From contig CAYHYM010000003.1 of the NCBI GenBank assembly GCA_964360965.1, positions 1 to 32,000 of the forward strand: a stretch of DNA of 32,000 bases, written 5' to 3'. Made by a program: the position numbers and the translations under genes. Under the pieces are notes generated by a model. The model searched no databases. It was not told the origin of the DNA and was given only the letters and a program-made list of their open reading frames with translations. Of the stretch, positions 3,590 through 29,663 are shown piece by piece. Position 1 is the first letter of the stretch; the number at the start of each line of letters is the position of its first letter. Source of the DNA: an uncultured Gammaproteobacteria bacterium (GTDB lineage Bacteria; Patescibacteriota; Microgenomatia; Daviesbacterales; UBA10151).

Positions 3590-3633
3590 ACACCCTTGGG
3601 GTGTATTCGTATTGACACCTGCGGATATTTGAG
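3590..3633 (+). repeat. left 44-nt repeat (ACACCC-ttg-GGGTGT hairpin followed by TTGACA)
   Basis: acacccttggggtgtattcgtattgacacctgcggatatttgag. TTGACA, then 17 nt, then TATGCT lies just upstream of the transposase ATG, so it is a possible promoter. Confidence 0.75.
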
Positions 3634-3648
3634 ATATGCTAGGCTCAA

Positions 3649-4293
3649 ATGCCTTCCAGAATTTTCCCCTTTGTAAATGGGCAGTATTACCACATCTATA
3701 ATAGGGGTGTAGAAAAAAGAACTATCTTTGAAAAAAGCTGGGACTACTCAAGACTTAAAAAGACAATGCAGTATTATCAGCTTCTCGGCCCTAAGCCAAG
3801 GCTATCTAAATTCCTATTAGGCTCAATTCTCAAGCCAGATACCAATAAGAAGATCGTGGACATTATTTGCTACTGTTTAATGCCAAATCATTTTCACTTT
3901 CTTATAAAACAGTTAAAAGAGGGTGGAATTACAGAATTTGTTAGTAAATTAAGTAACAGTTATACCAAATATTACAATGTAAAATATAAACGGGTTGGAC
4001 CCTTACTACAGGGAGAATTTAAAGCTGTATTAGTAGAATCTGATGAACAATTGCTACATGTTTCTCGCTATATTCATTTGAACCCGATTGCTTCTTTTTT
4101 GGTAAAAGACTTAAATCTCTATGAATGGTCTTCTTATAAAGAATATACTAATAACCATAAAGGTATTTGTAATACGGAAGAAATTATGGGCTTTTTTAAA
4201 GATAGCTCCTCTTATCAAAAATTTTGTTTGGACCAAGTTGAATATGCCCAAAAACTGGAACTAATTAAGCATCAATTATTGGAAGAAGAATAA
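3649..4293 (+). CDS. HUH-family Y1 transposase, IS200-like / REP-associated tyrosine transposase (RAYT)-like
   Basis: 214 aa. HUH motif in CYCLMPNHFHFLIK and catalytic-Tyr region SRYIHLNPI, the typical Y1_Tnp/RAYT signature. Confidence 0.75.
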   Translation: MPSRIFPFVNGQYYHIYNRGVEKRTIFEKSWDYSRLKKTMQYYQLLGPKPRLSKFLLGSILKPDTNKKIVDIICYCLMPNHFHFLIKQLKEGGITEFVSKLSNSYTKYYNVKYKRVGPLLQGEFKAVLVESDEQLLHVSRYIHLNPIASFLVKDLNLYEWSSYKEYTNNHKGICNTEEIMGFFKDSSSYQKFCLDQVEYAQKLELIKHQLLEEE

Positions 4294-4294
4294 T

Positions 4295-4338
4295 ACACCC
4301 TTGGGGTGTATTTGTATTGACACCTGCGGATTTTTGAG
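4295..4338 (+). repeat. right 44-nt repeat (same hairpin, same orientation)
   Basis: acacccttggggtgtatttgtattgacacctgcggatttttgag, starting 2 nt after the transposase stop. 42 of 44 positions are identical to the left copy. Confidence 0.75.
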
Positions 4339-4371
4339 AAAATTTGACCGGCACCCTTGAAGGGAAGATAA

Positions 4372-8070: not shown

Positions 8071-10962
8071 GTGAAATTGCTGCCCCTTTTAATTTTTCTA
8101 TTCACTTTTATTACGCTTCCCTCCCCAATCTATGCTGTCACCATTGCTGAGCAAACCCAAAACTTTGGAAATCAGCTAAATGTCTGGCAGGCAATTCAAG
8201 AGCTGGGCAGCTTGCTTGATGGCAAGGCCGGTTCCTTTACTTTCAGGGTACGTACCACTAAGACCAACCTTGAAATGTTTGATTATACTGCTCAAAATAC
8301 CAAGATTTATGATAAGGACACAAACACCAAAGTTGCCAACGGCTGCCACACAGGTTCTGCCTCTGATCCTTTGGGTGGCTTGACCTTTACCACAGCCGGG
8401 GTACCTGTTGGTTTTGAAGACGTGACAATTGATTTTTCATCCTGTAACTCTTACTCCTTCACTCAAGGACATAAATATTTAATTATTATAAGTAATGCCA
8501 ATATGGCACAATTTGGTGGAAGTTTAATCTATTTTGCAGCCGCTGCTTACGGGTCAAGCAGCACTGACCATTTTAATGGTGGGGGTTTAAGGTATGCTTT
8601 TGATAATAAATTTTGCAACCCAATCACTTACCAATGGAATTCTTCAATAAGTAATGCAAATGAAGACCAATGTAATATTTGGACCACACCCAAAGATGAC
8701 CTTTATTTTATTTTAGCCAACACCTCCCCTCCTCCCAAAACCCCGGTTATTTTTATACCCGGGATAGGGGGGTCTGAATTTAAAGCAGGGCAGGATATTA
8801 TCTGGGCAGATCAGGATGATGGACATGGAGGAAAGTTTTCTCATGCTTATACATCTGGGGAGAAAATTTGGGTCAATGAGGGTAAGGCGGCCGAACTGGG
8901 GGAGGATGATTATTTTGATGTATTAAGATTAAAATCTGATGGAGTAACTTCTGAGGCTTCTCTAAGTTTAACAGGAGATCTGACTTCTTTTGGTTATGGG
9001 GATATTGATTCATTTTTTACCGGATTGGGGTATGAGAAAGGTAAAAATTTCTTTGTTTTTCCCTATGATTGGAGAAAGGATGTGAGAGTTACCAAAGATA
9101 GTTTGGATGCCTTAATTGAGGAGGCAAAAACCAAATCAGGACAAACTAAGGTTAATCTAGTGGCCCATTCCATGGGAGGCTTGGTAGCCAGATATTATAT
9201 TGCTGATTCAGGGAGAGCTTCTAAGGTTAATAAGCTAATTTCTATGGGAGTTCCCCATTTGGGAGCAACAAAAGCTTTGAAAACCCTAATGTATGGAGAT
9301 GAAATAAAGAAGGATGTATTTGGTATATTTGCACTAGGAATCCCATCAAGTGAGGTCAAAGACGTATTCCAAAATCTCCCCAGCGCATTCCAGCTTTTAC
9401 CTTCCAAAAAATTTTATGATTTCTATGACAACTCTGCTCAGAAACCTTTCCCGTTTAGCGACGAAAGAGATATTGACAGTAACAAAGTTACTGGAGCACT
9501 AAACTTTATTCAAATCAAAGGATTGCTGGAAAATTTAATACACAATATGACAGTATTTGACTTTGGAGAACAACTTCATAATTTAGCTGATCCATTACTT
9601 AATCAATCTTCAACAGTCAAGTTGTATAACATAGCTGGTACCAGCCAACCTACTTTAGGACAAATCAGGGAAACGTGGTTAATACAGTGGCCTATTAATT
9701 TAATCTCTATAAGAGACGAGGTCTTTATTAACGGAGACAATACAGTGCCGCTCTATAGTGCCTCACTTAAAAGTGATTCTTTAGATTTTTCAGGCAGTGC
9801 AACTATTTATTATGTGGAACAAAAACACAGTGATCTGGTTTCAAAAGATGGCACAGCTATGCAAACAGTAAAGTCTATTTTAGAAGAATCTGATTTACCT
9901 GTTGAGGTTAAATCCGAAAAGATTGATTTGGAAGGACAGCATGTGTCTTTGGATGATGGGGAATTGGAATTGTATGATGATGAAGGAAAACATACTGGCA
10001 TAAAAGATGACGGAGAAATTGAAACCAATATTCCTGAAACTTTTTATTCAACATCAGGTAAAACTAAACATGCTTTTGTTAAAAAGAAAGCTAAAAAAGT
10101 GAAAGTGAGGGCTACTCGAAAAAAGAAAACCTCATCAGATCCCAAAACAACCAATCTAAAAATTAGAAGTTATAAACAGGATAAGGTTTCTAAAACCACA
10201 ATTTATAGAGATGTCTTAATTGCTGAAACAGCCAAAGTTGAATTTGATCTGGATCCAGCAATTGATACTTCTCCAACCCTTGCATTATTTCCTGATTCCA
10301 CCAAATCTGACAGCACAAATATTAATCTCACTAGTGAGGTATCAGGTGGTCCTGCCTTAGACCAAACATCACCTTCTACAAAGATAGAACTATCAGGAAG
10401 TAAAGATTCATTAGGCAAGTTTATATCCTCTGCCACAGTAACCTTAAGTTCCTCTGATTCTGAATCGGGAATTTTAAAAACAGAATATAGTTTGGATAAT
10501 GGTAAGACTGTTCAAACGTACAGTAATCCATTCACTGTCTCAACTCCTGGTAAAACTACTTTACAGGTAAAGTCTATTGATAAATTAGGTAATGAGGAAA
10601 TACCACAAGAAAAGGTCATAGAGATTGCTTCATCAACTTCTAGCTCATCTTCTTCCAGCTCATCTGGCAATAACTCATCAAGCACTGCACAATCCACCTC
10701 TGAGGAGTCCGTTCCGGTCACCTCCGAGGTGTTACGAAGTGACTCCTCGGAGGTGGATAGCACAAGCTCATCACAAGATATCCTGGGACTTAGCACCCAA
10801 AATCCAGTTTCATCTGCTCAATTAAAACCTCTAACTAACAACCAACCTAATCTACTAACAAGCAGTATGTTGATCTTAACAATGTTTATGGCCCAAAGCG
10901 GAATAATTCTTTTGTCATCCTTAAGATCAGTTCTTTCTTTTCTTAAACCAACCCCAAAATAG
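8071..10962 (+). CDS. secreted, C-terminally anchored LCAT/PGAP1-like alpha/beta-hydrolase (lipase/acyltransferase) with Ig-like and Ser-rich regions
   Basis: 963 aa with a GTG start. Signal peptide MKLLPLLIFLFTFITLPSPIYA. PVIFIPGIGGSEF oxyanion region, nucleophile elbow AHSMGG, and later NGDNTVP and KHSD (putative Asp and His). A poly-Ser tract and a terminal hydrophobic helix follow. Confidence 0.7.
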   Translation: MKLLPLLIFLFTFITLPSPIYAVTIAEQTQNFGNQLNVWQAIQELGSLLDGKAGSFTFRVRTTKTNLEMFDYTAQNTKIYDKDTNTKVANGCHTGSASDPLGGLTFTTAGVPVGFEDVTIDFSSCNSYSFTQGHKYLIIISNANMAQFGGSLIYFAAAAYGSSSTDHFNGGGLRYAFDNKFCNPITYQWNSSISNANEDQCNIWTTPKDDLYFILANTSPPPKTPVIFIPGIGGSEFKAGQDIIWADQDDGHGGKFSHAYTSGEKIWVNEGKAAELGEDDYFDVLRLKSDGVTSEASLSLTGDLTSFGYGDIDSFFTGLGYEKGKNFFVFPYDWRKDVRVTKDSLDALIEEAKTKSGQTKVNLVAHSMGGLVARYYIADSGRASKVNKLISMGVPHLGATKALKTLMYGDEIKKDVFGIFALGIPSSEVKDVFQNLPSAFQLLPSKKFYDFYDNSAQKPFPFSDERDIDSNKVTGALNFIQIKGLLENLIHNMTVFDFGEQLHNLADPLLNQSSTVKLYNIAGTSQPTLGQIRETWLIQWPINLISIRDEVFINGDNTVPLYSASLKSDSLDFSGSATIYYVEQKHSDLVSKDGTAMQTVKSILEESDLPVEVKSEKIDLEGQHVSLDDGELELYDDEGKHTGIKDDGEIETNIPETFYSTSGKTKHAFVKKKAKKVKVRATRKKKTSSDPKTTNLKIRSYKQDKVSKTTIYRDVLIAETAKVEFDLDPAIDTSPTLALFPDSTKSDSTNINLTSEVSGGPALDQTSPSTKIELSGSKDSLGKFISSATVTLSSSDSESGILKTEYSLDNGKTVQTYSNPFTVSTPGKTTLQVKSIDKLGNEEIPQEKVIEIASSTSSSSSSSSSGNNSSSTAQSTSEESVPVTSEVLRSDSSEVDSTSSSQDILGLSTQNPVSSAQLKPLTNNQPNLLTSSMLILTMFMAQSGIILLSSLRSVLSFLKPTPK

Positions 10963-13920: not shown

Positions 13921-14535
13921 TAACTTTTCTATTAGTTCCCCCTTCTCCACTGACACCTGGTAAAAATTACAAAGCTTATTAGTTTTTTCTTTAGGTTTAT
14001 CTAGTTCAATAATGATACAATCCCCGGGTGGAACTTGTGGATGAGGTGAGAGTATATGGGAAGCAGGATCAGCTAATTTTTTCTGATGAAAATTACTGCC
14101 AGAAGTTTGATATACAAAAACCTGTAACTCCCCTGGTAAACCATTACATATCACACCACTTTCTAAACTAACCACTCCATTATTAGTAGGCGCAACCAAT
14201 GAACTTGCAGTCATTCTTCCACCTATCACTTTAAAAAATTCACCCAAACTAATATCTTTATACTCTATCACCGGTCCCTCAACATGAATCCTATTATCAT
14301 TATGCTCATGTAGAATTGGTGTGCCAATTTTGTTAGATAATCCCTTGGGGTCTATTAAGTCCACTTTGTTTCCGCAGTTCCAAATTCCAAAATCAGCATG
14401 CCAGTGAACAGGACCACCAGTAACAGAGGTTTGGTTTGTGGAGATGGTTGACCAAACAAGATAAGCTGTAATTCCCAAAACCAGCAAAACAATTGTAAGA
14501 AATAAAAAATATTTTAAAATTTCTCTTTTTTCCAT
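13897..14535 (-). CDS. hypothetical membrane-anchored exported protein with Cys/His motifs
   Basis: The ORF track gives 13897-14604. I prefer the internal ATG at 14535 (MEKREILKYFLFL...), because the longer form overlaps the divergent ATPase start. One N-terminal TM helix, HWHADFGIWNCG and LHEHNDNRIHVEG motifs, and 4 Cys. Confidence 0.55.
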   Translation of the reverse strand: MEKREILKYFLFLTIVLLVLGITAYLVWSTISTNQTSVTGGPVHWHADFGIWNCGNKVDLIDPKGLSNKIGTPILHEHNDNRIHVEGPVIEYKDISLGEFFKVIGGRMTASSLVAPTNNGVVSLESGVICNGLPGELQVFVYQTSGSNFHQKKLADPASHILSPHPQVPPGDCIIIELDKPKEKTNKLCNFYQVSVEKGELIEKLDSSLRSE

Positions 14536-14585: not shown

Positions 14586-17189
14586 GTGGAAAAGGCATAT
14601 ACAAAAACCGCTGAGCAAGTTATTAAAGATCTAAAAACTGATCTTAAAGACGGGCTGACATCAGCCCAAGCCCAAAAAAGATTAGCACAATATGGCCCAA
14701 ATGTCTTAAAAGAAGAGATCGGTAAAAATCCTTTGCTGATTTTATTTTCCCAGTTCAGAAGCTTTTTGGTGATTATTTTAATAGTTGCCTCCATCATCTC
14801 ATATCTGTTGGGTCATAGCCTTGACGCCTTGATGATTTTGGCCATTGTCGCAATTAATGCTGTCTTAGGCTTTATTCAAGAATATCGGGCAGAGGAATCC
14901 ATCAAACATCTGAAAAAACTGGTCACTGCCAATGTCCAGGTGATCAGAGATGGCCGGTTAGTAGAGATTCCCCACTTTCAACTGGTACCAGGAGATTTGG
15001 TAATTGTAAGTGACGGCCAAAAAGTCCCGGCTGATTTAAGAGTAACACAATCCATCTATCTGCACCTTAATGAAGCACCACTGACCGGAGAATCAATTCC
15101 TGTCACCAAAGTAACAGACAGCTTACCCCCCAACACCAACATAGCTGATCAAAAAAATATGCTTTTTGCAGGCACCTCAGTCTCTTCTGGCAAGGGTATG
15201 GGGATAGTTGTATCAACAGCTATGAAAACAGAAATTGGCCAAATTGCCCATCTGGTATCACAAGAGGTGGAACCAGAAACCCCCCTCAAACAAAAGCTGG
15301 ATCGTTTGGGCAAACTTTTGGGCAGAATTGTTTTAATCGTCGCCTCCTTAATTGCCCTGGAACAAATAATATTGGGTGAACCAGTTATTGAAGCTCTCAT
15401 CTCATCAGTGGCCTTGGCAGTAGCAGCCATACCAGAAGGCTTGCCTGCCATTGTCACCATCTCTTTGGCTTTGGGCACCAAAAGGCTTCTTAAACAACGT
15501 GCCTTAATCAGAAATTTGCCTGCCTCAGAAACCTTAGGATCAACAGAGGTAATATGTGTAGACAAAACTGGCACCCTAACAGAAGGAGAAATGTCTGTGA
15601 GAGAGATTTACGGCGCAAATATTCAAAAAATTCTCACTGTGGGGATACTTTCAAGCAATGCCAGAAAAAATAAAGACAGAATTATTGGAGATGCCACTGA
15701 GGCAGCTTTAATACAAAAGGCCATAGATTCAGGACTGGATCAGGATCAATTGGATAAAAAATTTCCTCGAGTACAAGAAATACCCTTTTCTTCAGACAGA
15801 AAAATGATGACCACCATCTGCAAAGAGGATAATCAATACCGGGTGACCAGCAAAGGTGCAACCGAAGTCATCTTGGACAAATGTTCACATATTGAGGAGA
15901 ATGGCCAGGTTATACCATTAACTGAGGAGAAAAAAGAACAGATTTTAAAAGTTAATGACCAAATGGCCCAAGATGCCTTGAGGATTTTGGCTTTTGCCGA
16001 GAAGCGCATACACCTTGCAGGTGAAGAAAATGCAGTTACACCTGCGAGGTGGAAAGAAGAAGAGATAGAAAAAGATCTGATCTTTCTAGGCCTTCAGGGA
16101 ATGATGGATCCACCAAGGGAAGGTGTTAAAGAGGCTATTGAGGTTTGTCAAAGAAAAGCAGGAATTAAAGTAATAATGATCACCGGAGATCACCTGTTAA
16201 CTGCCCAATCCATTGCCAAAGAAATTGGTATCAAGGGGGAGAGCATCAGCGGTCAAGAGCTTGACAATCTTTCTGAAGAAGAATTTGTCAAAAAAGTTCA
16301 GGAAATTAACATCTATGCCAGGGTCAGCCCCACTCATAAAATTAGGATCATCAAGGCCCTAAAAGCCCGCGGTCATCAGGTGGCCATGACAGGTGATGGG
16401 GTCAATGATGCTCCGGCCTTAAAGGCTGCTGATACTGGGGTGGCCATGGGGGTTACGGGCACCGACGTGGCCAAAGATGCCTCAGATATAATTTTACTGG
16501 ATGATAATTTCACCACCATTGTGCAAGCCATAAAAGAAGGAAGGACAATTTTTGACAACATCAGAAAATTTGTTAATTACCTGTTATCTTCAAACATTAT
16601 GGAAATAATGGTGATATCTTTGGCTGTAATTTTGGGTGGGGGACATTTGCCGCTTTTACCTATTCATCTTTTATGGATCAATCTGGTCACTGATGGGCTG
16701 CCGGCCCTGGCTTTGGGAGTTGATCCGCCCAGAGCAGACATCATGAGTTTACCGCCCCAAAATTTTAGGCAGCAGATATTGGGTGGTAGATCTTTAGGGC
16801 CTTTAACTGCCGTCAGTGTACTTTTAACCATAGCTATCCTTGCTATTTTCTTTATCTATCAAAAAGATCCAATTTATGAACAAACCATGGTTTTTACATC
16901 CATTGTCTTTTATGAAATGTTAAGAATTATTGCCATAAGGTCTGAATATAAACTGCCGTTTTTCTCAAATAAATTCTTAATCCTTGCTATAGCTGGATCA
17001 TTAGCACTGCATCTTGTGATTCTTTATCTACCATTCTCTTTTGCAGGAGTAACATTGCAAGAATTATTTAAAGTTCAGCCGTTAAATCTTTTTGACTGGG
17101 TACTACTGCTTGGAATTGGCATCTTCCTTCTATTTATCATGAGAATCTTGGTCATTACACCTGTATTTAATTTTTTAAAAAAGCCTTGA
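14586..17189 (+). CDS. cation-transporting P-type ATPase, type II (Ca2+/PacL-like)
   Basis: 867 aa with a GTG start. N-terminal cation-ATPase domain (GLTSAQAQKRLAQYGPN), DKTGTLT, TGD, MTGDGVNDAPALK and 10-TM topology. Confidence 0.9.
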   Translation: MEKAYTKTAEQVIKDLKTDLKDGLTSAQAQKRLAQYGPNVLKEEIGKNPLLILFSQFRSFLVIILIVASIISYLLGHSLDALMILAIVAINAVLGFIQEYRAEESIKHLKKLVTANVQVIRDGRLVEIPHFQLVPGDLVIVSDGQKVPADLRVTQSIYLHLNEAPLTGESIPVTKVTDSLPPNTNIADQKNMLFAGTSVSSGKGMGIVVSTAMKTEIGQIAHLVSQEVEPETPLKQKLDRLGKLLGRIVLIVASLIALEQIILGEPVIEALISSVALAVAAIPEGLPAIVTISLALGTKRLLKQRALIRNLPASETLGSTEVICVDKTGTLTEGEMSVREIYGANIQKILTVGILSSNARKNKDRIIGDATEAALIQKAIDSGLDQDQLDKKFPRVQEIPFSSDRKMMTTICKEDNQYRVTSKGATEVILDKCSHIEENGQVIPLTEEKKEQILKVNDQMAQDALRILAFAEKRIHLAGEENAVTPARWKEEEIEKDLIFLGLQGMMDPPREGVKEAIEVCQRKAGIKVIMITGDHLLTAQSIAKEIGIKGESISGQELDNLSEEEFVKKVQEINIYARVSPTHKIRIIKALKARGHQVAMTGDGVNDAPALKAADTGVAMGVTGTDVAKDASDIILLDDNFTTIVQAIKEGRTIFDNIRKFVNYLLSSNIMEIMVISLAVILGGGHLPLLPIHLLWINLVTDGLPALALGVDPPRADIMSLPPQNFRQQILGGRSLGPLTAVSVLLTIAILAIFFIYQKDPIYEQTMVFTSIVFYEMLRIIAIRSEYKLPFFSNKFLILAIAGSLALHLVILYLPFSFAGVTLQELFKVQPLNLFDWVLLLGIGIFLLFIMRILVITPVFNFLKKP

Positions 17190-17582: not shown

Positions 17583-18140
17583 CTAAATCACTTTAGCCAC
17601 TGATGCAATCATTAAAATTCCCACAGAGTTTGAGATATAGGATATTAAAATAAATCTTGCCTCGGACATTTTGGAAATTCCCAAAAGGGATACTCCCAGC
17701 TCATCAGGCAGTGGCGAGGCAATTATAAATACACCTATTATGGGAAGAGTCCAAGCAATATATTTTGAATGAAGTAAAGCTTTTATATGCGATGTTTCTT
17801 GCTTGCCAAAAAGTATAGCCAACTCCTCTTGCAGACGACTCCTTACCAACTTAAAAACCAGATAGTCTCCCCAAACCGCTCCCACACCACCAATCAAAGC
17901 AATTGCCATGGGATGTAAATTTTGAGTCATGATGGCAATAACTACTGTTGAGATGGCCACAGTGAATGAGGAAACAAAAAGCATCCCGGCAATTAAAGCT
18001 CCAATATATTCCAAGGATCCTAACCCTAAAAGCCAGTTTTTAAAGGCTTCATTTTGTGCCAATATTATGGCCAATAGAATACTTATTAAAACAGCAGTCA
18101 AATACGGATATCTCCACTTTTTCCAGAAATTAGGCACCAT
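17583..18140 (-). CDS. integral membrane protein, possibly DedA/VTT-like
   Basis: 185 aa with 4-5 TM helices. GAVWGDYLVFKLVR and SPLPDELG resemble VTT/DedA motifs (weak). The start overlaps the upstream gene by 11 nt. Confidence 0.5.
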   Translation of the reverse strand: MVPNFWKKWRYPYLTAVLISILLAIILAQNEAFKNWLLGLGSLEYIGALIAGMLFVSSFTVAISTVVIAIMTQNLHPMAIALIGGVGAVWGDYLVFKLVRSRLQEELAILFGKQETSHIKALLHSKYIAWTLPIIGVFIIASPLPDELGVSLLGISKMSEARFILISYISNSVGILMIASVAKVI

Positions 18141-19185
18141 GGTGTGCCTCCGCAGCCGGGCTTTGTTTTTTCCGCTTCAATAAATAATTATATGCAGCCA
18201 AGGCAGCCCTTACCCCATCACCTGCAGAAATATTATTTTGTTTATAAGGATCATTGGTGACGTCCCCACAAGCAAAAACCCCGGGATGGGAGGTGGTGGC
18301 ATGTTGAAAATTCACCATGATTTGTCCATGGTCATCAATTTGTACCAAATCTTTAACCATCTCAGAGTTAGGAACTGAGCCTATTTCCACAAATATCCCG
18401 CCCACTTCCAAAGTCTTTTCTTCTGCACTTCCACTCCCGATGTGGGATTGAGCTGACACATCGGGAGTGTGTATTCGGTATTTGAGCCCGGTTACCAATG
18501 CTTCCCCCACCACTTCCACAGTTTGGGCATTAAGAATAATTTGTCTAAGTTTGGGGTTTTTCTTGATTTCCTCAATAGTTGCCGGATCAGCTCTTAAGAT
18601 CTCACCCCTCTCCATCAGGTAAATTTCTGATGCATAGGGAAAAAGGTCCTGTACTGCCTCGAGTCCGGCATTTCCTCCACCAACAACTGCCACCTTTTTA
18701 TCGCGAAAAAGGGGAGCATCGCATGTTGAGCAATATACCACACCCCTACCTTCAAACTTATCCTCCCCTGGAATGCCTAGTTTCCTACGTCTGGCACCTG
18801 AGGCCACAATGACGGTTTTCCCCTGATATACTTGTCCTGAGCCTGTCGAAGGATCTGTAGTCACCTCAAAATCACAGATCCTCCCAGCAGACACCTCGGA
18901 TGGTGTGGACTCAGTAGACCTGCATGCAACAGATTTTACCTTCACCACCTTTTCTGTTTTTATATCAACAATATCTGGATAAGCTCTAACATGAGCTTCC
19001 AGTTTTTTAGCTAAATTGAGTCCAGAAATATGTACCTCTCCTATCCAGTTTTGAATATCATCTGAGACAATTGACTGCCCGCCAAAAGATTCTGTAATAA
19101 GGAGAGTTTTCATCTGCTTTCTTGCCGCATAAACAGCAGCAGCACAAGCTGCAGGTCCTCCACCAATGATAATTACGTCATACAT
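18130..19185 (-). CDS. trxB: FAD-dependent pyridine nucleotide-disulfide oxidoreductase, thioredoxin reductase / AhpF C-terminal-like
   Basis: 351 aa. GGGPAACAAAVYAAR FAD motif, FGGQ...IQNWIG, redox CSTCDAPLF (AhpF-like CxxCDGPLF), VVGGGNAGLEA NAD motif and GVFACGDV. It carries two in-frame repeat insertions. Confidence 0.8.
   Translation of the reverse strand: MYDVIIIGGGPAACAAAVYAARKQMKTLLITESFGGQSIVSDDIQNWIGEVHISGLNLAKKLEAHVRAYPDIVDIKTEKVVKVKSVACRSTESTPSEVSAGRICDFEVTTDPSTGSGQVYQGKTVIVASGARRRKLGIPGEDKFEGRGVVYCSTCDAPLFRDKKVAVVGGGNAGLEAVQDLFPYASEIYLMERGEILRADPATIEEIKKNPKLRQIILNAQTVEVVGEALVTGLKYRIHTPDVSAQSHIGSGSAEEKTLEVGGIFVEIGSVPNSEMVKDLVQIDDHGQIMVNFQHATTSHPGVFACGDVTNDPYKQNNISAGDGVRAALAAYNYLLKRKKQSPAAEAHHGA
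18432..18469 (+). repeat. palindromic element, 13-bp perfect stem and 12-nt loop, intragenic (copy 1)
   Basis: cactcccgatgtg-ggattgagctga-cacatcgggagtg. The arms are identical to the copy at 20519-20556. Confidence 0.85.
18834..18854 (+). repeat. CTGAGC-N4-CGAAG element, intragenic
   Basis: gtc-CTGAGC-ctgt-CGAAG-gat. It is read in frame as PSTGSGQ. Confidence 0.65.
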
Positions 19186-19187
19186 AC

Positions 19188-20147
19188 TTATACCTTAACA
19201 GGAGTAAGTGGAGGTTGTCCAGATAAAACCGCAATTATATTTTTGGCTGCCAATTCTCCCATGGCTGAACGGGCTTCTATTGTTGCAGAAGCAATATGAG
19301 GAGTTAGAATCACATTTTCTAAATCCACCATACCAGCAGCCCATTTAGGTTCTGTTTCACCCACATCTAAAGCTGATCCGGCAATGACTTTATTTTTCAA
19401 GGCTTCGACAAGCTCAGCCTCATCAACCACAGGACCACGGGAAGTATTGACCAGATAGGCCGTGGATTTCATCATCTTCAGATGCTCGGCGTTAATTAAA
19501 TGTCTTGTAGAATCAAGTAGGGGGACGTGAATTGAAACCACATCTGATGTGGAAAGTAGTTCTTCAGGTGTTGCTTTAAAGACTGCTCCCACCTTAGTTT
19601 CAAAATCCGGATTTTGTTTAACATCGTAATAGATCACATTCATACCAAAACTTTTCCCAATCTCAGCCACCCTTGAACCAATCCTGCCGAGTCCTAAAAC
19701 CCCCAAGGTTTTATCTTTAAGTTCCATCCCCAACATGACTTCCGGACCAAACTGCGCAGACTCTGTAAGAGCCAATTTATGGGCTTCAACAACTCTTCTT
19801 GAGATTGCCATTATCAGTGCAAATGTATGTTCAGCAACAGCCTCTGTTAACACATCCGGGGTGTTGGTGACCACAATACTTCGCGACAAAAGGGCGGGGA
19901 GGTCTAAATTATCTGTACCTACAGCGTAATTGGCAACTATTTTTAAATTAGCCCCAGCAGCGTTAATAAACTCCTGATCCACCTTATCAGTCAACATGCT
20001 CAACACCCCATCTGCACCCTGTATAAAATTCAAAAGTTCCTGTCTTTCCAAAGGCCGATCATGTGGTGAAACCACCACTTCATACCCAGCATCCTGCAAC
20101 ATCTTTATCCCACTGCCGGGAATTTTTCTGGTAACTACAACTTTCAT
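19188..20147 (-). CDS. D-isomer-specific 2-hydroxyacid dehydrogenase (glyoxylate/hydroxypyruvate reductase-like)
   Basis: 319 aa. NAD fold GLGRIGSRVAE, catalytic region TPHIASAT, and a strong SD (GGAGGTGG) 6 nt upstream of the ATG. Confidence 0.8.
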   Translation of the reverse strand: MKVVVTRKIPGSGIKMLQDAGYEVVVSPHDRPLERQELLNFIQGADGVLSMLTDKVDQEFINAAGANLKIVANYAVGTDNLDLPALLSRSIVVTNTPDVLTEAVAEHTFALIMAISRRVVEAHKLALTESAQFGPEVMLGMELKDKTLGVLGLGRIGSRVAEIGKSFGMNVIYYDVKQNPDFETKVGAVFKATPEELLSTSDVVSIHVPLLDSTRHLINAEHLKMMKSTAYLVNTSRGPVVDEAELVEALKNKVIAGSALDVGETEPKWAAGMVDLENVILTPHIASATIEARSAMGELAAKNIIAVLSGQPPLTPVKV

Positions 20148-20171: not shown

Positions 20172-21017
20172 CTAATCCATCATAACAACTTCTGTTAAAA
20201 CTTTAAATCTTTCTGGTAAGGTTTTTGTTAAAAACTGTTGTTTTTCTTCCCCTTGCAAACTGCAAACCTCCTGCCACAGCGCCCTTCCTGCTAAAAAGCC
20301 TTTGGCCCCTGCTTTTATTGCAACTTTCAAATTTTCTTTAAAAACCTCAAAACTATCTCCTCCTGTAAGTAAAATCCATGGAGTATCACCTACCATATTG
20401 GTAATTTCCACGCATACATCCAAATCACCCGGATATTCCAACTTCCACACATCTGGAACTATCCTAACCTCCTTAAAAATTTTCACTGACTCGATCACCA
20501 ACCCTGCTTTAGTGGTCCCACTCCCGATGTGAGATTGAGTATGCACATCGGGAGTGTACGTGACAATTTCTAAAAAAAATGGGAAATCATGAATCTTACA
20601 ATCCTCTAAAACTTTCCTGGCAGTTTCCAGCTGTTTTTTTGCACTTTCTAAGTTTGGATTAAAATAAATCAAAAGTTTGGCCCCAGAAGCCCCCAGCTCT
20701 TTTAACTGCCCAACTATGTATTCCAACTCCGTAATTCTTTCTCCAGCCTGGTTAACGTATCCGCTTTTTTCTAAAGGTAATAAAAATGGTTTTGTTTGGC
20801 AAGCTTCTTTACATGCCTCTATGCCATAGTGTTCATCAATCAACAGTCCTGAAACTTGACCTGCTAAAGCATTGATAATTTCTGATTTCAGGGAAACAAC
20901 AGTCTCATCAGAAACACTATCAGCATCCTGTGGATTTATTAATTTCTTAAATGATCCCCTATGGTCCAAAGCCAACATCAAAAATTTGCCATCAGATGTA
21001 AACTTACTTAAATCCAT
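20172..21017 (-). CDS. class I aldolase of the LacD/YihT (tagatose-bisphosphate aldolase) family
   Basis: 281 aa. N-terminal FLMLALDHRGS motif and VWKLEYPG (putative Schiff-base Lys region). It carries the in-frame palindromic element. Confidence 0.65.
   Translation of the reverse strand: MDLSKFTSDGKFLMLALDHRGSFKKLINPQDADSVSDETVVSLKSEIINALAGQVSGLLIDEHYGIEACKEACQTKPFLLPLEKSGYVNQAGERITELEYIVGQLKELGASGAKLLIYFNPNLESAKKQLETARKVLEDCKIHDFPFFLEIVTYTPDVHTQSHIGSGTTKAGLVIESVKIFKEVRIVPDVWKLEYPGDLDVCVEITNMVGDTPWILLTGGDSFEVFKENLKVAIKAGAKGFLAGRALWQEVCSLQGEEKQQFLTKTLPERFKVLTEVVMMD
20519..20556 (+). repeat. palindromic element, 13-bp perfect stem and 12-nt loop, intragenic (copy 2)
   Basis: cactcccgatgtg-agattgagtatg-cacatcgggagtg. 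Confidence 0.85.
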
Positions 21018-21020
21018 AAT

Positions 21021-22004
21021 CTAAATTTCCTTGGCTATTATTTTAGAATTTTCTTTTAATTTTTCCTGCATCTTATCATAAGTTAAAAGACCTGCTTGAG
21101 GACCAATTTGTTCAACCACAGCTGCTCCATTGGCAGCTCCCCACCGCATAGCCTCTGGTAAATCTTTACCATAAAAAAGTCCTGCTAATACTCCTGTAGC
21201 ATACCCGTCTCCTGCCCCTGTCATTTCCAAAAGTTTGGCTGGAAAAATCCCCAAATGATAATATTTGCTTCCATCAAACCCATATGAACCTTCCTCACCA
21301 TCTGTAATAATAATCATTCTTGGTCCTAAATCACAAAGTCCTTTCAGCAATTTTTTAATGGCTATATCTTCCTCATCTTGATATCCTAATATTCTTTTGG
21401 CTTCCTCTTCGTTCACTATAAATAGTTCTGTTAGCAACAGCAGCTGTGGACTCTTTTTAATTCCTGCCTGAATTTGATAAGTACCGGGATTATATAGTAG
21501 CTTGCCTCCAACTCTTTGTAAATATTGTACCAGCTGGCTGATTATATTAGATTGAGTAAATGAGCGCGACACGGAGGTAAAATATACCCATTTTGTTCTA
21601 TCCAGATCTGGCAGATCATACTTCCAAGCCTGATGATAAACCAAGATTGTCCTTTCCCCCTGAAAGTTGATAACCGTTGATAAGTTGGACTCCATTCCCT
21701 TATTTATTAATACATACTGCGGACTGACTCCTTCTTGTTTAAACTTATCCAATATTTGTTTGCCAGCTGGGTCTGAACCAACGTTGACATAAATTGCGCT
21801 GTTAAGCTTAAGTCTTGCTCCACCAACTGCATTATTGGCAGCATTGCCAGCCACCAGATGTGTCAGCTTATCAACCGCAATCTTATCCCCGTAATCAATG
21901 CAAAGTTTGCAGTCTTCTTTATTTAGGCTGCACCTGACTTCTGCATCTTGAATTTGCACAAAATTATCAATAGTTGCATCACCAACTGAGATTAAATCAT
22001 ACAT
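21021..22004 (-). CDS. PfkB-family carbohydrate kinase
   Basis: 327 aa. N-terminal GDATID, AGNAANNA and the C-terminal TGAGDGYATG motif of ribokinase/PfkB kinases. Confidence 0.8.
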   Translation of the reverse strand: MYDLISVGDATIDNFVQIQDAEVRCSLNKEDCKLCIDYGDKIAVDKLTHLVAGNAANNAVGGARLKLNSAIYVNVGSDPAGKQILDKFKQEGVSPQYVLINKGMESNLSTVINFQGERTILVYHQAWKYDLPDLDRTKWVYFTSVSRSFTQSNIISQLVQYLQRVGGKLLYNPGTYQIQAGIKKSPQLLLLTELFIVNEEEAKRILGYQDEEDIAIKKLLKGLCDLGPRMIIITDGEEGSYGFDGSKYYHLGIFPAKLLEMTGAGDGYATGVLAGLFYGKDLPEAMRWGAANGAAVVEQIGPQAGLLTYDKMQEKLKENSKIIAKEI

Positions 22005-23293: not shown

Positions 23294-25300
23294 CTATATT
23301 TTCACTCTTTTTAATAATAACGAATTAGTAACAACAGATATAGAACTTGTGGCCATAGCAACTGATGCAAAAATCGGATTCAATAGTAAATGAAAGAATG
23401 AATAGAGAATTCCCATAGCAACAGGTATCAGTATAATATTATATCCAAAAGCCCAAAACAGATTCAACTTAATAGTTCTCATGGTTTTTTGGGATAACTC
23501 AACTGCATGAGCTACGGATTTTAAGTCTTTATTGATTAGTGTAATATCAGCAGCTTCTATTGCTACATCCGTACCAGTTCCCATGGCAATGCCTATATCT
23601 GCAGCAGCCAGAGCTGGAGCATCGTTAATCCCATCACCAACCATAGCAACTTTTTTACCCTCTGCCTGAATTTTTTTCACCTCTGCTTCTTTCTGATCTG
23701 GTAAGACTTCTGCCAAAACTCTTTTAATACCCACTTGATCTGCAATAGCGTCAGCAGTCCTCTTATTATCTCCTGTAATCATCACAACTTCTATGCCCAT
23801 TTTTTGCAATGACTGCACACCTTCTCTGGCAGTGTCTTTTAAAGTATCGGCCACAGCAATTAAACCCGCTAATTTTCTATTTGCAGCCAGCATCATTACT
23901 GTCTTACCATCATTTTCAAATTTCTCAATATCTGTGAGATTTTTTTCATAAATCACGTTCTCCCTGTCCATAAGCTTGCGATTTCCCAGGAAAACTTTCT
24001 GGTTGTTAACTACCCCTTCTATCCCAAATCCAGGGATTGCTTTAAAATATTTAACCTTCGGAATAGTCTCACCCTCTATGCCAAGATTTCTTCCATACTC
24101 TAAAATTGCTTCTGCAAGAGAATGTTCTGAAGACTTTTCCAGAGCAACTGCCCGAGAAAGTATTAGCATATCACTGTTATACATTCTATTACCCGTTGTC
24201 TTAATATCTGTAACCACTGGTTTCCCTTTGGTGAGTGTTCCTGTTTTATCAAAAATCACGGTATTTATTTTATGGGCTGTTTCCAAGCTTTCTGCATCTT
24301 TTATTAAAATCCCATGCTCTGCCCCAATCCCTGTTCCCACCATAATAGCTGTGGGAGTAGCCAGACCCATGGCACAAGGGCAGGCAATAATTAAAACTGC
24401 TATGGCATTTAACATGGCAAATAAGAGGGGGACCTGCCCTGAGCTTGTCGAAGGGCCAAACACATACCAACCGACAAATGTGACAATTGCCAGCATAATC
24501 ACAATGGGCACAAAATAAGAGGAAATTAAATCTGCAATCCTTTGGATTGGAGCTTTAGAGCCTTGTGCTTCCTGGACTAACTTAATAATTTGAGCGAGCA
24601 TGGTATCAGAACCTACTTTTGTGGCTTTATAAGTAAAAGTGCCTGATTTATTAATTGTTGCCCCGACAACTATATCTCCTTTAGCTTTATCAACCGGCAT
24701 ACTCTCACCAGTTATCATTGACTCATCTATAGAGGATTCACCTTCAACTATCACTCCATCTACTGGAATTTTCTCACCAGGTCTGACTCTGATTACATTA
24801 CCAACCACAACCTGATCAATAGGTATATCTTTTTCCTGACCATCAACTAGAACCCTGGCAGTTTTAGCTTGTAATCCAATTAATTTTTTAATAGCTTCAG
24901 AAGTTCCAGCTTTGGCTTTGGCCTCAAAATAACGGCCAAGCAAAATCAAACCGATAATAATTGTGGAAACATCAAAATACGGTTCCGGTTTGATGCCAAT
25001 ATTTTCCATCACTTGAGGAAAAATAGTCACAAAGGCGGAATAGGAAAAAGCCACACTAGTACCAATGGCAACCAGTGTGTCCATATTGGCAGTACGATGA
25101 CGCAGTGCAGGCAGTGTTGCTTGATAAAATTCCCATCCTGCCCAAAATTGAACTGGGGTGGCCAAAAGCAGTTGTACCCAGAAGTTTTGTAAAATAGTTG
25201 GGGAAGTTACCATTAATCCTGGAAAAGAACCCCATAAAATCAGTCCACCTAAAACCAAACTTATTACCACTTTAATTTGTAAATCCTTCTCTCTGTTCAT
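23294..25300 (-). CDS. copA: copper-translocating P1B-type ATPase (no N-terminal HMA domain)
   Basis: 668 aa. CPC motif ([13 protein letters not shown]), DKTGTLT, MITGDN and [11 protein letters not shown]. Confidence 0.9.
24436..24456 (+). repeat. CTGAGC-N4-CGAAG element, intragenic
   Basis: gcc-CTGAGC-ttgt-CGAAG-ggc. It is read in frame as PSTSSGQ, just upstream of the CPC helix. Confidence 0.65.
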
Positions 25301-29288: not shown

Positions 29289-29310
29289 GTTTATATTCCT
29301 TACTTAACTT

Positions 29311-29335
29311 GTCATCCCCGCGCAGGCGGGGATCC
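29311..29335 (+). repeat. GTCAT hairpin repeat (left)
   Basis: gtcat-ccccgc-gcag-gcgggg-atcc, with 8-bp stem atccccgc/gcggggat. Confidence 0.7.
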
Positions 29336-29337
29336 AT

Positions 29338-29622
29338 TTAAATGACCTGACTATATAAATCAGACCATTCTGGATTAAACTTATTAATTAGCTTCATCTT
29401 CCAGTATCTTTTCCATTTCTTCATTTGTTTCTCTCTCAATATAGCATCATTAATATTCTGATGCTGTTCATAATACACCAGTTCATGTACTCCATATTTT
29501 TCAGTAAATCCCTTCACTAAATTATTTTTATGTTCCCAAACCCTTCTTACCAAATTATCTGTTACTCCTATGTAAAAAGTCCCGTTTTTTCCGCTAGCCA
29601 GTATATAAACATAATATTCCAT
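29338..29622 (-). CDS. GIY-YIG (URI-domain) nuclease family protein, UPF0213-like
   Basis: 94 aa. YVYILASGKNGTFYIGVTDNLVRRVWEHK is the classic GIY-X10-YIG...R...E pattern. Confidence 0.85.
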   Translation of the reverse strand: MEYYVYILASGKNGTFYIGVTDNLVRRVWEHKNNLVKGFTEKYGVHELVYYEQHQNINDAILREKQMKKWKRYWKMKLINKFNPEWSDLYSQVI

Positions 29623-29631
29623 TTGTTAAGT

Positions 29632-29656
29632 GGATTCCTGCTTTCGCAGGAATGAC
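29632..29656 (-). repeat. GTCAT hairpin repeat (right, inverted)
   Basis: The plus strand reads ggattcctgctttcgcaggaatgac. Its reverse complement gtcat-tcctgc-gaaa-gcagga-atcc differs from the left copy by paired C:G to T:A stem changes. Confidence 0.7.
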
Positions 29657-29663
29657 AAAATCA

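What the first reader, a model, noticed from the sequence alone, without database searches (positions are those of the whole stretch)
20518..20557. Second copy of the 13-bp-stem palindromic element, in frame inside a LacD-type aldolase gene
- The sequence is c-CACTCCCGATGTG-agattgagtatg-CACATCGGGAGTG-t.
- It sits inside the TIM-barrel aldolase between FFLEIVTY and KAGLVIESVKIF and adds TPDVHTQSHIGSGT.
- Because the arms are palindromic, the encoded peptide is quasi-symmetric at the DNA level (TPDV ... HIGSG).
- The reading frame of the host gene is preserved. This implies selection for frame-neutral insertion, or a function at the RNA or protein level.
- Two enzymes in one operon-like array carry the same element.
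Basis: partly seen in the sequence, partly recalled or inferred. Interest (0 to 1): 0.8.

Follow-up and report, generated by a model that had tools for sequence, protein, structure and literature searches.

The report
Frame-neutral mini-palindrome inside enzyme genes
A 42-base DNA hairpin repeat sits in frame inside an aldolase gene (and a neighbouring reductase gene) of an uncultured groundwater Daviesbacterium, adding a floppy 13-residue loop; it is a small relative of the in-frame palindromic repeats known from Rickettsia and of intragenic REPs, not a new kind of system.

Summary
Window 20519-20556 is a perfect 13-bp stem with a 12-nt loop, and 18432-18469 has the same stem. Both lie in frame and in the same orientation in intact genes (a DeoC/LacD-DUF2090 aldolase and a TrxR-like reductase). 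Three independent assemblies give the same sequence. The unit is 42 nt (15+12+15), or 14 codons, so it is frame-neutral by construction. An ~80% identical TrxR orthologue lacks exactly 42 nt, with no target-site duplication. In aldolase orthologues this β→α loop is hypervariable. About half carry a 13-bp hairpin there, and the stems are either identical or differ by fully compensated changes. Stems are 24/24 identical between species whose synonymous sites are saturated (~50%). Stem and loop types do not follow the gene tree. The same element occurs in UvrC, RecJ-like and a membrane glycosyltransferase, in another frame and orientation. The best reading is a low-copy, DNA-level, REP/RPE-like coding palindrome tolerated in permissive loops. 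A RAYT-like Y1 transposase gene lies nearby, but a link to it is only suggestive. It is a new variant of a known kind and of moderate interest.

The parts
20517..20558 (-). Copy 2 of the element, taken as the 42-nt unit (15+12+15). The perfect 13-bp stem plus 12-nt loop core is 20519-20556. It encodes Y154 and TPDVHTQSHIGSG (residues 155-167) of the aldolase.
   Evidence: CM R1 63.8 bits
18430..18471 (-). Copy 1 of the same element. The core hairpin is 18432-18469, with an identical stem and loop TCAGCTCAATCC on the coding strand. It encodes HTPDVSAQSHIGSG in the TrxR-like reductase.
   Evidence: 65.5 bits. The empty site in the L038 orthologue lacks exactly 42 nt.
20172..21017 (-). Host gene of copy 2: a class-I aldolase of the DeoC/LacD-DUF2090 family, 281 aa, intact.
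   Evidence: Pfam; PDB LacD/YihT/DUF2090 matches; AF2 TIM barrel, pLDDT 93.4
18130..19185 (-). Host gene of copy 1: a thioredoxin-reductase-like FAD/NAD(P) oxidoreductase, 351 aa. It carries at least three insertion hotspots.
   Evidence: Pfam; alignment A4
16011..16051 (+). In-frame hairpin of a different stem family (CACCTTGCAGGTG / CACCTGCGAGGTG, loop 15, one U.G-type mismatch) in the Ca-type P-ATPase gene, encoding HLAGEENAVTPARW. L038 has a perfect orthologous hairpin.
10719..10755 (+). In-frame hairpin whose left arm, CACCTCCGAGGTG, is the same 13-mer as the stem at the aldolase site of L038. It has one mismatch and an 11-nt loop, and lies in a Ser-rich LCAT-like surface protein, encoding TSEVLRSDSSEV.
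3649..4293 (+). RAYT-like Y1 (HUH) transposase gene, 214 aa, with HUH and Tyr motifs intact. It is syntenic with L039 (NrdR-RNR-hyp-Y1_Tnp-CobA). It is a candidate mobilising enzyme, not a demonstrated one.
   Evidence: Pfam Y1_Tnp; the only NCBIfam hit is REP-associated tyrosine transposase, 47.8 bits, below the cutoff of 80; alignment
3590..3634 (+). 45-nt repeat upstream of Y1_Tnp, with its own small hairpin ACACCCttgGGGTGT. It is not the same sequence as the in-gene hairpin.
   Evidence: (D1)
4295..4339 (+). Second copy (96% identical) of the 45-nt repeat, directly downstream of Y1_Tnp.
   Evidence: (D1)

Best explanation
The feature is one copy of a small, low-copy family of coding palindromes found in Candidatus Daviesbacteria and related CPR bacteria. 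The unit is 42 nt: 15-nt arms with a perfect 13-bp core, and a 12-nt loop. It is propagated and maintained at the DNA level. It persists inside genes for four reasons: its length is a multiple of three; its arms have no stop codon in any frame; it adds no target duplication; and in the common frame it encodes a Pro/Asp/Gly/Ser-rich flexible peptide (TPDV-xxQx-HIGSG) that is tolerated in permissive loops. In the aldolase that loop is the β→α loop after the strand carrying the invariant Glu150. What is shown: it is an insertion; it is the same element in unrelated genes; its stems are far better conserved than synonymous sites; stem changes are always compensated, with Watson-Crick pairs only; and its variants do not follow the host-gene tree. 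What is inferred: (a) copies spread by a copy-and-paste process that acts on a single-stranded DNA hairpin, and/or by homologous exchange of gene segments between related genomes; (b) the arms are kept complementary by intrastrand template switching (quasipalindrome correction), or by selection on the hairpin; (c) the RAYT-like Y1 HUH transposase encoded in these genomes is the most plausible enzyme, but that step is untested.
For: 1. It is an insertion. The L038 TrxR orthologue, ~80% identical, lacks exactly 14 codons at ATA|…|AGT with no direct repeat, and 57 of 60 TrxR orthologues are empty there. Aldolase orthologues range from 0 to ~35 residues at this loop.
2. It is the same element in unrelated hosts. 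It occurs in the aldolase, TrxR, UvrC (L029; stems 26/26, loop 11/12 identical to the L050 aldolase copy), RecJ-like (L031), and a GT39-like membrane protein in another frame and in antisense orientation (L034/L035/L012).
3. Conservation is at the DNA level. Stems are 24/24 nt identical among window, L022, L032 and L048. Third-codon identity at conserved residues elsewhere in the gene is 0.46-0.58.
4. Changes in the stem are compensated. Three of 13 pairs show double-sided changes, 98.5% of cells are Watson-Crick, there are 0 G.U pairs, and 0 of 500 shuffles reach the observed covariation. Perfect variant stems are CACTCCCGGTGTG, CAATCCCGGTTTG and CACCTCCGAGGTG.
5. It is decoupled from the host tree. 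The TPDV type occurs in at least 4 clades and the NPGL type in 2. The sisters P0005 and P0028 differ, and many sisters are empty. Loop classes cut across clades.
6. The sequence is conserved, not the peptide. In L050 the right arm is a direct copy of the left arm (HSRCG), and L041 has a nested remnant.
7. It is tolerated structurally. The insert has pLDDT <50 between strand 147-153 and helix 170-183 in an otherwise 93.4-pLDDT barrel, and it aligns without gaps to the LacD loop.
8. A RAYT-like gene is present and syntenic. In L039 the hairpin next to it scores 27.5 bits, E~1e-5, with the element model.
9. Intragenic REPs and RPEs are an established phenomenon (PMC3733652, PMC3184786).
Against: Copy number is low. 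The exact stem core matched only 28 loci in one genome per species of 185,579 species, and most of those are unrelated hairpins. It matched once in the complete 820-kb Daviesbacteria genome CP066688.1, 9 times in metagenome contigs, and not at all in viral contigs. That is unlike an actively proliferating REP family. Recurrence at exactly the same loop in orthologues needs either target preference, homologous exchange or strong survivorship, and none of these is demonstrated. In the window genome the repeats flanking the Y1_Tnp gene are a different hairpin: the CM score is not significant and the stem-match test gives p>0.2. In L039 the simple stem-match test is only p~0.05. No event of movement has been observed. 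Strict conservation of 26 nt could instead reflect a host function.
Confidence: 0.55

Rival explanations
1. It is a functional mRNA hairpin. The 13-bp stem would be selected at the RNA level inside the coding region, for example as an RNase III or other processing site, a stabiliser within the polycistronic transcript, or a translational pause that helps folding. The encoded peptide would be a tolerated by-product.
For: The fold is very stable (-23 kcal/mol, z about -4.7 on the sense strand). Stem changes are compensated. Most intragenic copies are in the same orientation relative to the gene (aldolase, TrxR, UvrC). Two imperfect copies have a U.G in the sense strand (window 16011-16051 and L041).
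Against: The sequence is conserved, not just the pairing: 24/24 nt across species. There is no G.U among 130 cells. The element is absent from 57 of 60 TrxR orthologues and about half of the aldolase orthologues, so it cannot be needed for expression of these genes. It is present antisense in L034. L050 keeps the arm sequence but destroys the hairpin. There is no Rfam family.
Confidence: 0.15
2. It is a DNA-level host site. The palindrome would be a sequence-specific binding or processing site for a host protein, for example one acting in recombination, repair, segregation or DNA uptake, that happens to lie within genes.
For: The stem sequence is conserved across lineages while the loop varies. 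Pairing is strictly Watson-Crick. Hosts include the DNA-repair genes UvrC and RecJ, echoing the REP-in-repair-gene pattern reported in PMC3733652.
Against: There are one or two exact copies per genome and none in most relatives. Several different stem variants occupy the same loops. No candidate binding protein was identified.
Confidence: 0.1
3. The palindromes arise locally and de novo by template-switch mutation at fragile loops, with no transfer between sites. Similar sequences would then arise repeatedly because part of an arm pre-exists.
For: Different palindromes recur at the same loops. There is an arm flip in L050 and a nested remnant in L041. These are typical outcomes of template switching. 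The arms are kept perfect.
Against: Independent origin cannot give 26/26 identical stems plus 11/12 identical loops in unrelated genes (UvrC L029 against the aldolase of L050 and L022), nor the TrxR copy 2 kb from the aldolase copy.
Confidence: 0.1
4. It is a protein-level motif. TPDV…HIGSG would be a selected functional peptide, for example a metal- or ligand-binding loop near the active site, and the palindromy would be incidental.
For: The insert lies four residues after the invariant Glu150 on the catalytic face of the barrel. The same frame is used in four host genes.
Against: The insert has pLDDT <50. The peptide is not conserved where the DNA is (L050 HSRCG; L034 LPMWIYIATSGV). It is absent from most orthologues. 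Synonymous positions are frozen, which selection on the protein cannot explain.
Confidence: 0.03

Closest known systems
Rickettsia palindromic elements (RPE; Ogata et al. 2000, as summarised in PMC3184786 and PMC3733652)
   Same: Both are palindromic repeats inserted in frame within genes for functional proteins. Both lie in segments that tolerate them, in a reduced genome, and are interpreted as selfish DNA inside coding regions.
   Different: RPEs are ~105-146 bp, numerous, and confined to Rickettsia. This element is 42 nt with a perfect 13-15-bp stem. It is low-copy, occurs in CPR bacteria, and recurs at the same loop in orthologues with compensated stem variants.
Intragenic REPs (GTAG- or CGTC-tagged REPs) and the REP/REPIN-RAYT system (PMC3733652, PMC3116915)
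   Same: Both are single stem-loops in the 20-40 nt size range. Some REPs lie within coding regions, notably uvr and rec genes. A RAYT-like Y1 transposase gene flanked by hairpins is present in the same genomes, and no target duplication is made.
   Different: There is no GTAG or CGTC tag. The element is not abundant and not mainly extragenic. It is not arranged as inverted doublets. In the window genome the RAYT-like gene is flanked by a different hairpin.
Coding palindromes in Nematomorpha mitochondrial genes (PMC6649704)
   Same: Both are perfect inverted repeats embedded in translated coding sequence, where a stringent secondary structure and the reading frame are kept together.
   Different: The mitochondrial repeats are up to 284 bp, both arms encode conserved protein regions, and they are not dispersed copies of one element. 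Here the arms encode a dispensable loop, and the same element occurs in unrelated genes.
MITEs (DDE-transposon-derived miniature elements)
   Same: Both are short, non-autonomous, can form hairpins, and are sometimes fused to ORFs.
   Different: MITEs are 70-400 bp with terminal inverted repeats and target-site duplications. No duplication is seen at the filled and empty TrxR junction.

Membership tests
REP / REPIN-RAYT system | Short (about 20-40 nt) palindrome able to form a stem-loop | tested here: met
   The core is 13-bp stem + 12-nt loop + 13-bp stem (38 nt; 42-nt unit), at -23 kcal/mol.
REP / REPIN-RAYT system | Many dispersed copies per genome, predominantly extragenic | tested here: not met
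   There are 2 copies in 32 kb, both intragenic. The exact core matches once in the complete Daviesbacteria genome CP066688.1. It matches 28 loci across 185,579 species genomes, mostly unrelated hairpins.
REP / REPIN-RAYT system | Conserved GTAG or CGTC tetranucleotide at one end (PMC3733652) | tested here: not met
   The 5' flanks are TAC, CAC, TTC or CGC directly before ACTCCC. GTAG appears only incidentally 3' of the right arm in L022 and L029.
REP / REPIN-RAYT system | A RAYT gene flanked by copies of the same repeat | tested here: inconclusive
   A RAYT-like Y1_Tnp gene is present (below the NCBIfam cutoff). In L039 the flanking hairpin scores 27.5 bits, E~1e-5, with the element model, but the simple stem-match test gives only p~0.05. 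In the window the flanks are a different 45-nt repeat, with p>0.2.
REP / REPIN-RAYT system | Pairs of REPs in inverted orientation (REPIN doublets) | tested here: not met
   All copies seen are single hairpins.
Rickettsia palindromic elements (RPE) | Palindromic repeat inserted in frame in genes that remain intact | tested here: met
   The ORFs are intact and identical in three assemblies, and orthologues have empty sites.
Rickettsia palindromic elements (RPE) | Element length about 105-146 bp (PMC3184786, Table) | tested here: not met
   The unit is 42 nt.
Rickettsia palindromic elements (RPE) | Sequence relationship to the RPE-1 to RPE-n families of Rickettsia | not tested
The hosts are unrelated phyla, so homology is not expected.
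MITE | Terminal inverted repeats plus target-site duplication, 70-400 bp | tested here: not met
   There is no direct repeat at the filled and empty junction ATA|42 nt|AGT against ATA|GAC, and the element is 42 nt.
IS200/IS605-type palindrome-associated element | Distinct left- and right-end subterminal hairpins, with insertion 3' of a fixed tetra- or pentanucleotide | tested here: inconclusive
   Only one hairpin is present. The 5' flank is often (T/A/G)TAC but is not constant. No duplication is made, which is compatible with HUH chemistry.
DeoC/LacD class-I aldolase (host gene) | Match to the family profile above the curated threshold, with a TIM-barrel fold | tested here: met
   PF01791 scores 70.4 bits (cutoff 23.8) and PF09863 scores 46.4 bits (cutoff 27). 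LacD, YihT and DUF2090 structures match at E 1e-12 to 1e-29. AF2 gives a barrel at pLDDT 93.4.
Any curated structured RNA (Rfam 15) | Score at or above a family's gathering threshold | tested here: not met
   The only match is mir-1911 at 21.4 bits against a gathering score of 88, E 0.48, which is a chance hairpin.

The most novel reading that the evidence does not exclude
CPR bacteria may carry a previously undescribed class of 'codon-compatible' REP-like hairpins: 42 nt, free of stops, and inserted without a duplication. A domesticated RAYT-like Y1 transposase would mobilise them through single-stranded DNA. They would repeatedly colonise and replace one another at permissive loops of housekeeping enzymes, including loops on the catalytic face. 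In these minimal genomes the element family would then act as a standing generator of loop-length and loop-sequence variation in proteins.
Probability: 0.2. Interest if true: 0.7.

Novelty: new variant of a known kind. Interest (0 to 1): 0.55.

Why it matters
In-frame palindromic repeats are textbook oddities of Rickettsia and of a few REP-rich Proteobacteria. This finding would extend them to the Candidate Phyla Radiation in a much smaller, frame-neutral form. It would also help explain why CPR proteins so often carry odd, non-conserved, quasi-symmetric peptide inserts at loops and termini, which complicate annotation, alignment and structure prediction. Two unexplained features are general questions about how hairpin repeats are maintained and spread: stems that stay frozen while synonymous sites are saturated, and recurrent occupation of the same loop by different compensated variants. 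A system with a 42-nt element and a single candidate Y1 transposase would make those questions directly testable in vitro.

Tried and rejected
1. Protein-level census of the encoded peptide. The search for homologous proteins refuses queries under 40 aa. The exhaustive profile search with the two window segments returned only three low-complexity repeat proteins and not even the aldolase orthologues. A 13-residue core is too short.

2. Extending the view of this genome. Look-ups on window-end proteins gave only 5-9 kb Hainich contigs that overlap the window, and one protein was not on record. A whole-genome count for this organism was therefore not possible.

3. Viral contigs: 0 matches.

4. 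Rfam: nothing.

5. Assembly artefact: rejected, because three assemblies give identical DNA.

6. Chance palindrome: rejected.

7. Most of the 28 genome hits and some metagenome hits for the stem core are unrelated hairpins. They include terminator-like hairpins and a conserved Saccharothrix/Actinosynnema hairpin, and were set aside.

8. The 2-mismatch match at 19851-19863 lies in the conserved NTPDV motif of the 2-hydroxyacid dehydrogenase and is a coincidence.

9. PDB hits to designer PPR proteins at aldolase residues 154-190 are spurious repeat-driven matches.

10. DDE-type MITE: rejected, because there is no target duplication.

11. GTAG/CGTC-tagged REP: rejected.

12. A direct sequence link between the window's Y1_Tnp flanks and the element was tested and is not significant.
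Full report
**Observation.** Window 20518-20557 reads cCACTCCCGATGTG-agattgagtatg-CACATCGGGAGTGt. That is a perfect 13-bp inverted repeat around a 12-nt loop. The same 13-mer forms a second perfect hairpin at 18432-18469. Shuffled sequence gives a mean of 0.27 matches at up to two mismatches, and none of 100 shuffles reached the five observed. The two 40-nt copies are 88% identical; all differences are in the loop. Either strand folds at -23 to -25 kcal/mol, z = -3.8 to -4.7. A scan for perfect hairpins finds more in the window than in shuffles, and these two are the longest.

**Context.** Copy 2 lies in ORF 20172-21017 (-), a 281-aa protein that matches Pfam DeoC/LacD and DUF2090 and solved LacD, YihT and DUF2090 aldolases. 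Copy 1 lies in ORF 18130-19185 (-), a thioredoxin-reductase-like flavoprotein. A 2-hydroxyacid dehydrogenase gene lies between them and a PfkB kinase gene lies upstream, all on the minus strand. Names given to homologues place the genome in Candidatus Daviesbacteria (CPR, Microgenomates). Overlapping contigs come from Hainich groundwater well H51. Both copies are read in the same frame and orientation:
- aldolase: TAC ACT CCC GAT GTG CAT ACT CAA TCT CAC ATC GGG AGT GGG, giving Y-TPDVHTQSHIGSG
- reductase: CAC ACT CCC GAT GTG TCA GCT CAA TCC CAC ATC GGG AGT GGA, giving H-TPDVSAQSHIGSG

Two further independent assemblies carry the identical aldolase DNA, so it is not an assembly error.

**It is an insertion, and the unit is 42 nt.** The TrxR orthologue in L038 is about 80% identical and reads GLKYKI|DGQEK where the window reads GLKYRI[HTPDVSAQSHIGSG]SAEEK. 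That is exactly 14 codons, and there is no direct repeat at the junction. Among 60 aligned TrxR orthologues, 57 are empty at this site. In L022 and L029 the palindrome extends to 15-bp arms (TACACTCCCGATGTG … CACATCGGGAGTGTA). So 15+12+15 = 42 nt, which is frame-neutral by construction. The arms contain no stop codon in any frame, as the sequence shows directly.

**The aldolase loop.** In 40 aligned orthologues, the segment after FFLEIVTY is the most variable part of the protein, at 0 to ~35 residues. AlphaFold2 gives a confident TIM barrel (pLDDT 93.4). The exception is residues 159-166 (<50), inside the insert, between strand 147-153 (which carries the invariant Glu150) and helix 170-183. 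This is a β→α loop on the catalytic face. From knowledge of LacD-type class-I aldolases, this Glu and the invariant Lys192 correspond to the catalytic acid and the Schiff-base lysine. LacD (5hjl) aligns without gaps across the whole segment. The hairpin-bearing protein therefore has the usual family loop length, and the 'empty' Daviesbacteria proteins are the short ones.

**Orthologous loops at the DNA level.** Every orthologue whose loop peptide looked quasi-symmetric has a 13-bp hairpin at this site, in the same frame (C|NNN|NNN|NNN|NNG).

| Locus | Stem | Notes |
|---|---|---|
| window, L022, L032, L048 | CACTCCCGATGTG | perfect |
| L049 | CACTCCCGAAGTG | one uncompensated change |
| L039 | CACTCCCGGTGTG | perfect; one compensated change |
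| L040 | CAATCCCGGTTTG | perfect; three compensated changes |
| L047 | CAATCCCGGTTTG | one mismatch |
| L038 | CACCTCCGAGGTG | perfect; loop 24 |
| L041 | decayed copy | preceded by a remnant TACACTCCC |
| L050 | right arm is a direct copy of the left arm | DNA word kept; hairpin and HIGSG peptide lost (HSRCG) |

On ten copies, 98.5% of stem cells are Watson-Crick pairs. Three pairs show changes on both sides, none shows a one-sided (G.U) change, and no shuffle reaches the observed covariation.

**Conservation compared with the host gene.** Among carriers of the TPDV type, proteins are 59-74% identical. Third-codon identity at conserved residues is 0.46-0.58, which is saturated. Yet the stems are 24/24 nt identical in window, L022, L032 and L048. 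Loops fall into classes:
- CAGnTACAATTC in L022, L032, L050 and the UvrC copy L029
- TCnnyTCAATCC in L048, L049 and the window TrxR copy
- TCAACwCAAATC in L039 and L047

L022 and L050 are 64% identical as proteins but 11/12 identical in the loop.

On a tree built with the loop masked, stem and loop types are scattered. The TPDV type occurs in at least four clades and the NPGL type in two. The close sisters P0005 and P0028 carry different types, and several carriers have empty sisters. The element is therefore either much younger than its host genes or exchanged among them. A single old insertion evolving in place does not fit.

**Other hosts and census.** The exact stem core with a 6-20 nt loop was found at 28 loci in one genome for each of 185,579 species. 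Most are unrelated hairpins in other phyla. The relevant ones are the aldolase of the complete Daviesbacteria genome CP066688.1 (a single match), a 13+12+13 copy in a membrane-protein gene (L012), and an intergenic Saccharibacteria palindrome (L010). Metagenome contigs gave nine loci:
- another aldolase (L032)
- a UvrC gene from the same Hainich well (L029: …YFSRY[TPDVQLQFHIGSV]DVK)
- a RecJ-like gene (L031; loop 11)
- a GT39/ArnT-like membrane glycosyltransferase (L034, L035)
- three others not pursued

In the glycosyltransferase the same DNA is read in another frame as the hydrophobic LPMWIYIATSGV within a hydrophobic segment. By the covariance model it lies antisense to the gene. Viral contigs gave nothing. 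The element is thus low-copy, and it is plainly a nucleic-acid entity rather than a protein motif.

**The phenomenon is broader than this stem.** The window holds two more in-frame hairpins of other stem families. One is 16011-16051 in the Ca-type P-ATPase, which has a perfect orthologous hairpin in L038. The other is 10719-10755 in a Ser-rich LCAT-like protein, whose left arm is the very 13-mer found at the aldolase site of L038. In TrxR orthologues, copy 1's loop is occupied in two other lineages by different palindrome-type peptides (STPGVSDGGTSELHTGG and SHLPGDNTNSSGHLEGG). A second hotspot is filled in 17 of 60 sequences by TSEV…HTSEV, TSEE…PPSEV and TPGV-type peptides. Permissive loops are colonised repeatedly.

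**Candidate machinery.** The window encodes a 214-aa Y1 (HUH) transposase homologue (3649-4293) with intact HUH and Tyr motifs. Its only NCBIfam match is 'REP-associated tyrosine transposase', below the curated cutoff (47.8 bits against 80; the L038 homologue scores 77.3). The gene is single-copy in each locus seen and syntenic between the window and L039 (NrdR-RNR-hyp-Y1_Tnp-CobA), as expected for a vertically inherited RAYT-like gene. It is flanked by hairpin-bearing repeats.
- In the window these are 45-nt direct repeats with the hairpin ACACCCttgGGGTGT, unrelated to the element.
- In L039 the flanking hairpin AACTCCCGAAGTT-tctttatt-AACTTCGGGAGTT scores 27.5 bits, E~1e-5, with the element model. 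A plain stem-match test is only borderline (p~0.05).

The absence of a target duplication and the strictly Watson-Crick stems fit a single-stranded-DNA hairpin substrate. The link remains an inference.

**Interpretation.** The evidence fits a REP/RPE-like coding palindrome. It is a DNA-level repeat that can be copied between sites or genomes. Its arms are kept complementary, either by intrastrand template switching, which also explains the arm flip in L050, or by selection on the hairpin. It survives only where its translation is harmless.

Rival readings are less well supported.
- An mRNA regulatory hairpin does not explain sequence-level conservation, the lack of G.U pairs, absence from most orthologues, or the antisense copy.
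- A host DNA-binding site does not explain one or two copies per genome, or several different stems at one loop.
- Purely local de novo palindrome formation cannot give identical stem plus loop in unrelated genes.
- A protein motif is contradicted by the frozen synonymous sites, the alternative frames and the low-confidence structure.

**Comparison with known elements.** In-frame palindromic repeats are known from Rickettsia (RPE, ~105-146 bp). GTAG/CGTC-tagged REPs also occur inside genes, often uvr and rec genes (PMC3733652, PMC3184786). Perfect coding palindromes are known in Nematomorpha mitochondria (PMC6649704). This element works like these but fails membership of each. It has no tag, low copy number and no doublets (REP). 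Its size is wrong (RPE). It has no duplication (MITE). Full-text searches found no description of such elements in CPR/Patescibacteria.

I therefore rate it a new variant of a known kind. It is a solid and rather neat observation of moderate interest. Two features remain unexplained: stems frozen across species, and recurrent occupation of the same loop by compensated variants.

Noticed in passing
window 18805-18873 (-) and 24404-24475 (-): A second short dispersed in-frame repeat that is not a hairpin by itself. It reads CCTTCGACAGGCTCAGGACAAGT (PSTGSGQV) in TrxR and CCTTCGACAAGCTCAGGGCAGGT (PSTSSGQV) in the Cu-type P-ATPase, about 20/23 nt identical. The TrxR copy is absent from the L038 orthologue and from 57 of 60 orthologues.
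   Followed up: partly
window 16011-16051 (+); L038 8987-9027: An in-frame 13-bp hairpin of another stem family in the Ca-type P-ATPase (HLAGEENAVTPARW). It is orthologous and perfect in L038. The single mismatch in the window copy is a U.G in the sense strand.
   Followed up: partly
window 10719-10755 (+): A hairpin in a Ser-rich LCAT-like surface protein. Its left arm, CACCTCCGAGGTG, is identical to the stem occupying the aldolase loop in L038, so a second stem family is shared between unrelated genes and genomes.
   Followed up: partly
window 3590-3634, 4295-4339, 14337-14356: 45-nt direct repeats (96% identical) flank the RAYT-like Y1_Tnp gene on both sides, each with the small hairpin ACACCCttgGGGTGT. 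A third partial copy (85%) lies at 14337-14356. They may be this genome's own REP-like family.
   Followed up: partly
window 18844-18936 (-); alignment A4 columns 158-173: A second insertion hotspot in TrxR (window STESTPSEVSAG). It is filled in 17 of 60 orthologues by varied quasi-palindromic peptides such as TSEVDAGFNRVHTSEV and TSEESLRLRSVPPSEV. The window also has a 9-bp hairpin at 18850-18882.
   Followed up: partly
alignment A4, N-termini of P0127, P0146-P0149, P0157 and others: Many TrxR orthologues carry 20-45-residue N-terminal extensions with recurring peptides (VQPDIGSSSEIASSSSTPRNDAVESG). These look repeat-encoded as well.
   Followed up: no
L041 4653-6015: A diversity-generating retroelement core (bAvd plus a reverse transcriptase gene) lies about 4 kb upstream of the aldolase gene in a related Daviesbacteria contig.
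   Followed up: no
L043 4694-4978 (equivalent to the gap at window ~29290-29660): A 94-aa GIY-YIG domain ORF sits between the DinB-like gene and the N-terminal transketolase-half gene, within the split transketolase cluster. It may be a free-standing homing-endonuclease-like gene.
   Followed up: no
L045 1242-2239 against window 21021-22004: In one independent assembly the PfkB kinase gene upstream of the aldolase gene is called as two ORFs (200 + 131 aa), whereas it is intact (327 aa) in the window. This may be a frameshift, or strain variation in that assembly.
   Followed up: no
aldolase residues 154-190 (window ~20448-20558): phmmer against the PDB gives E 1e-8 to 1e-12 hits to designer pentatricopeptide-repeat proteins over VTYTPDV…KAG…PDVW. 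These are judged spurious and driven by the repetitive designed sequences.
   Followed up: partly
L010 7052-7095; L036; L037: In Saccharibacteria contigs the same 13-bp stem occurs intergenically with a loop that is itself palindromic (tgataattatca). The result is one long perfect palindrome, CGCACTCCCGATGTGTGATAATTATCACACATCGGGAGTGCG.
   Followed up: no
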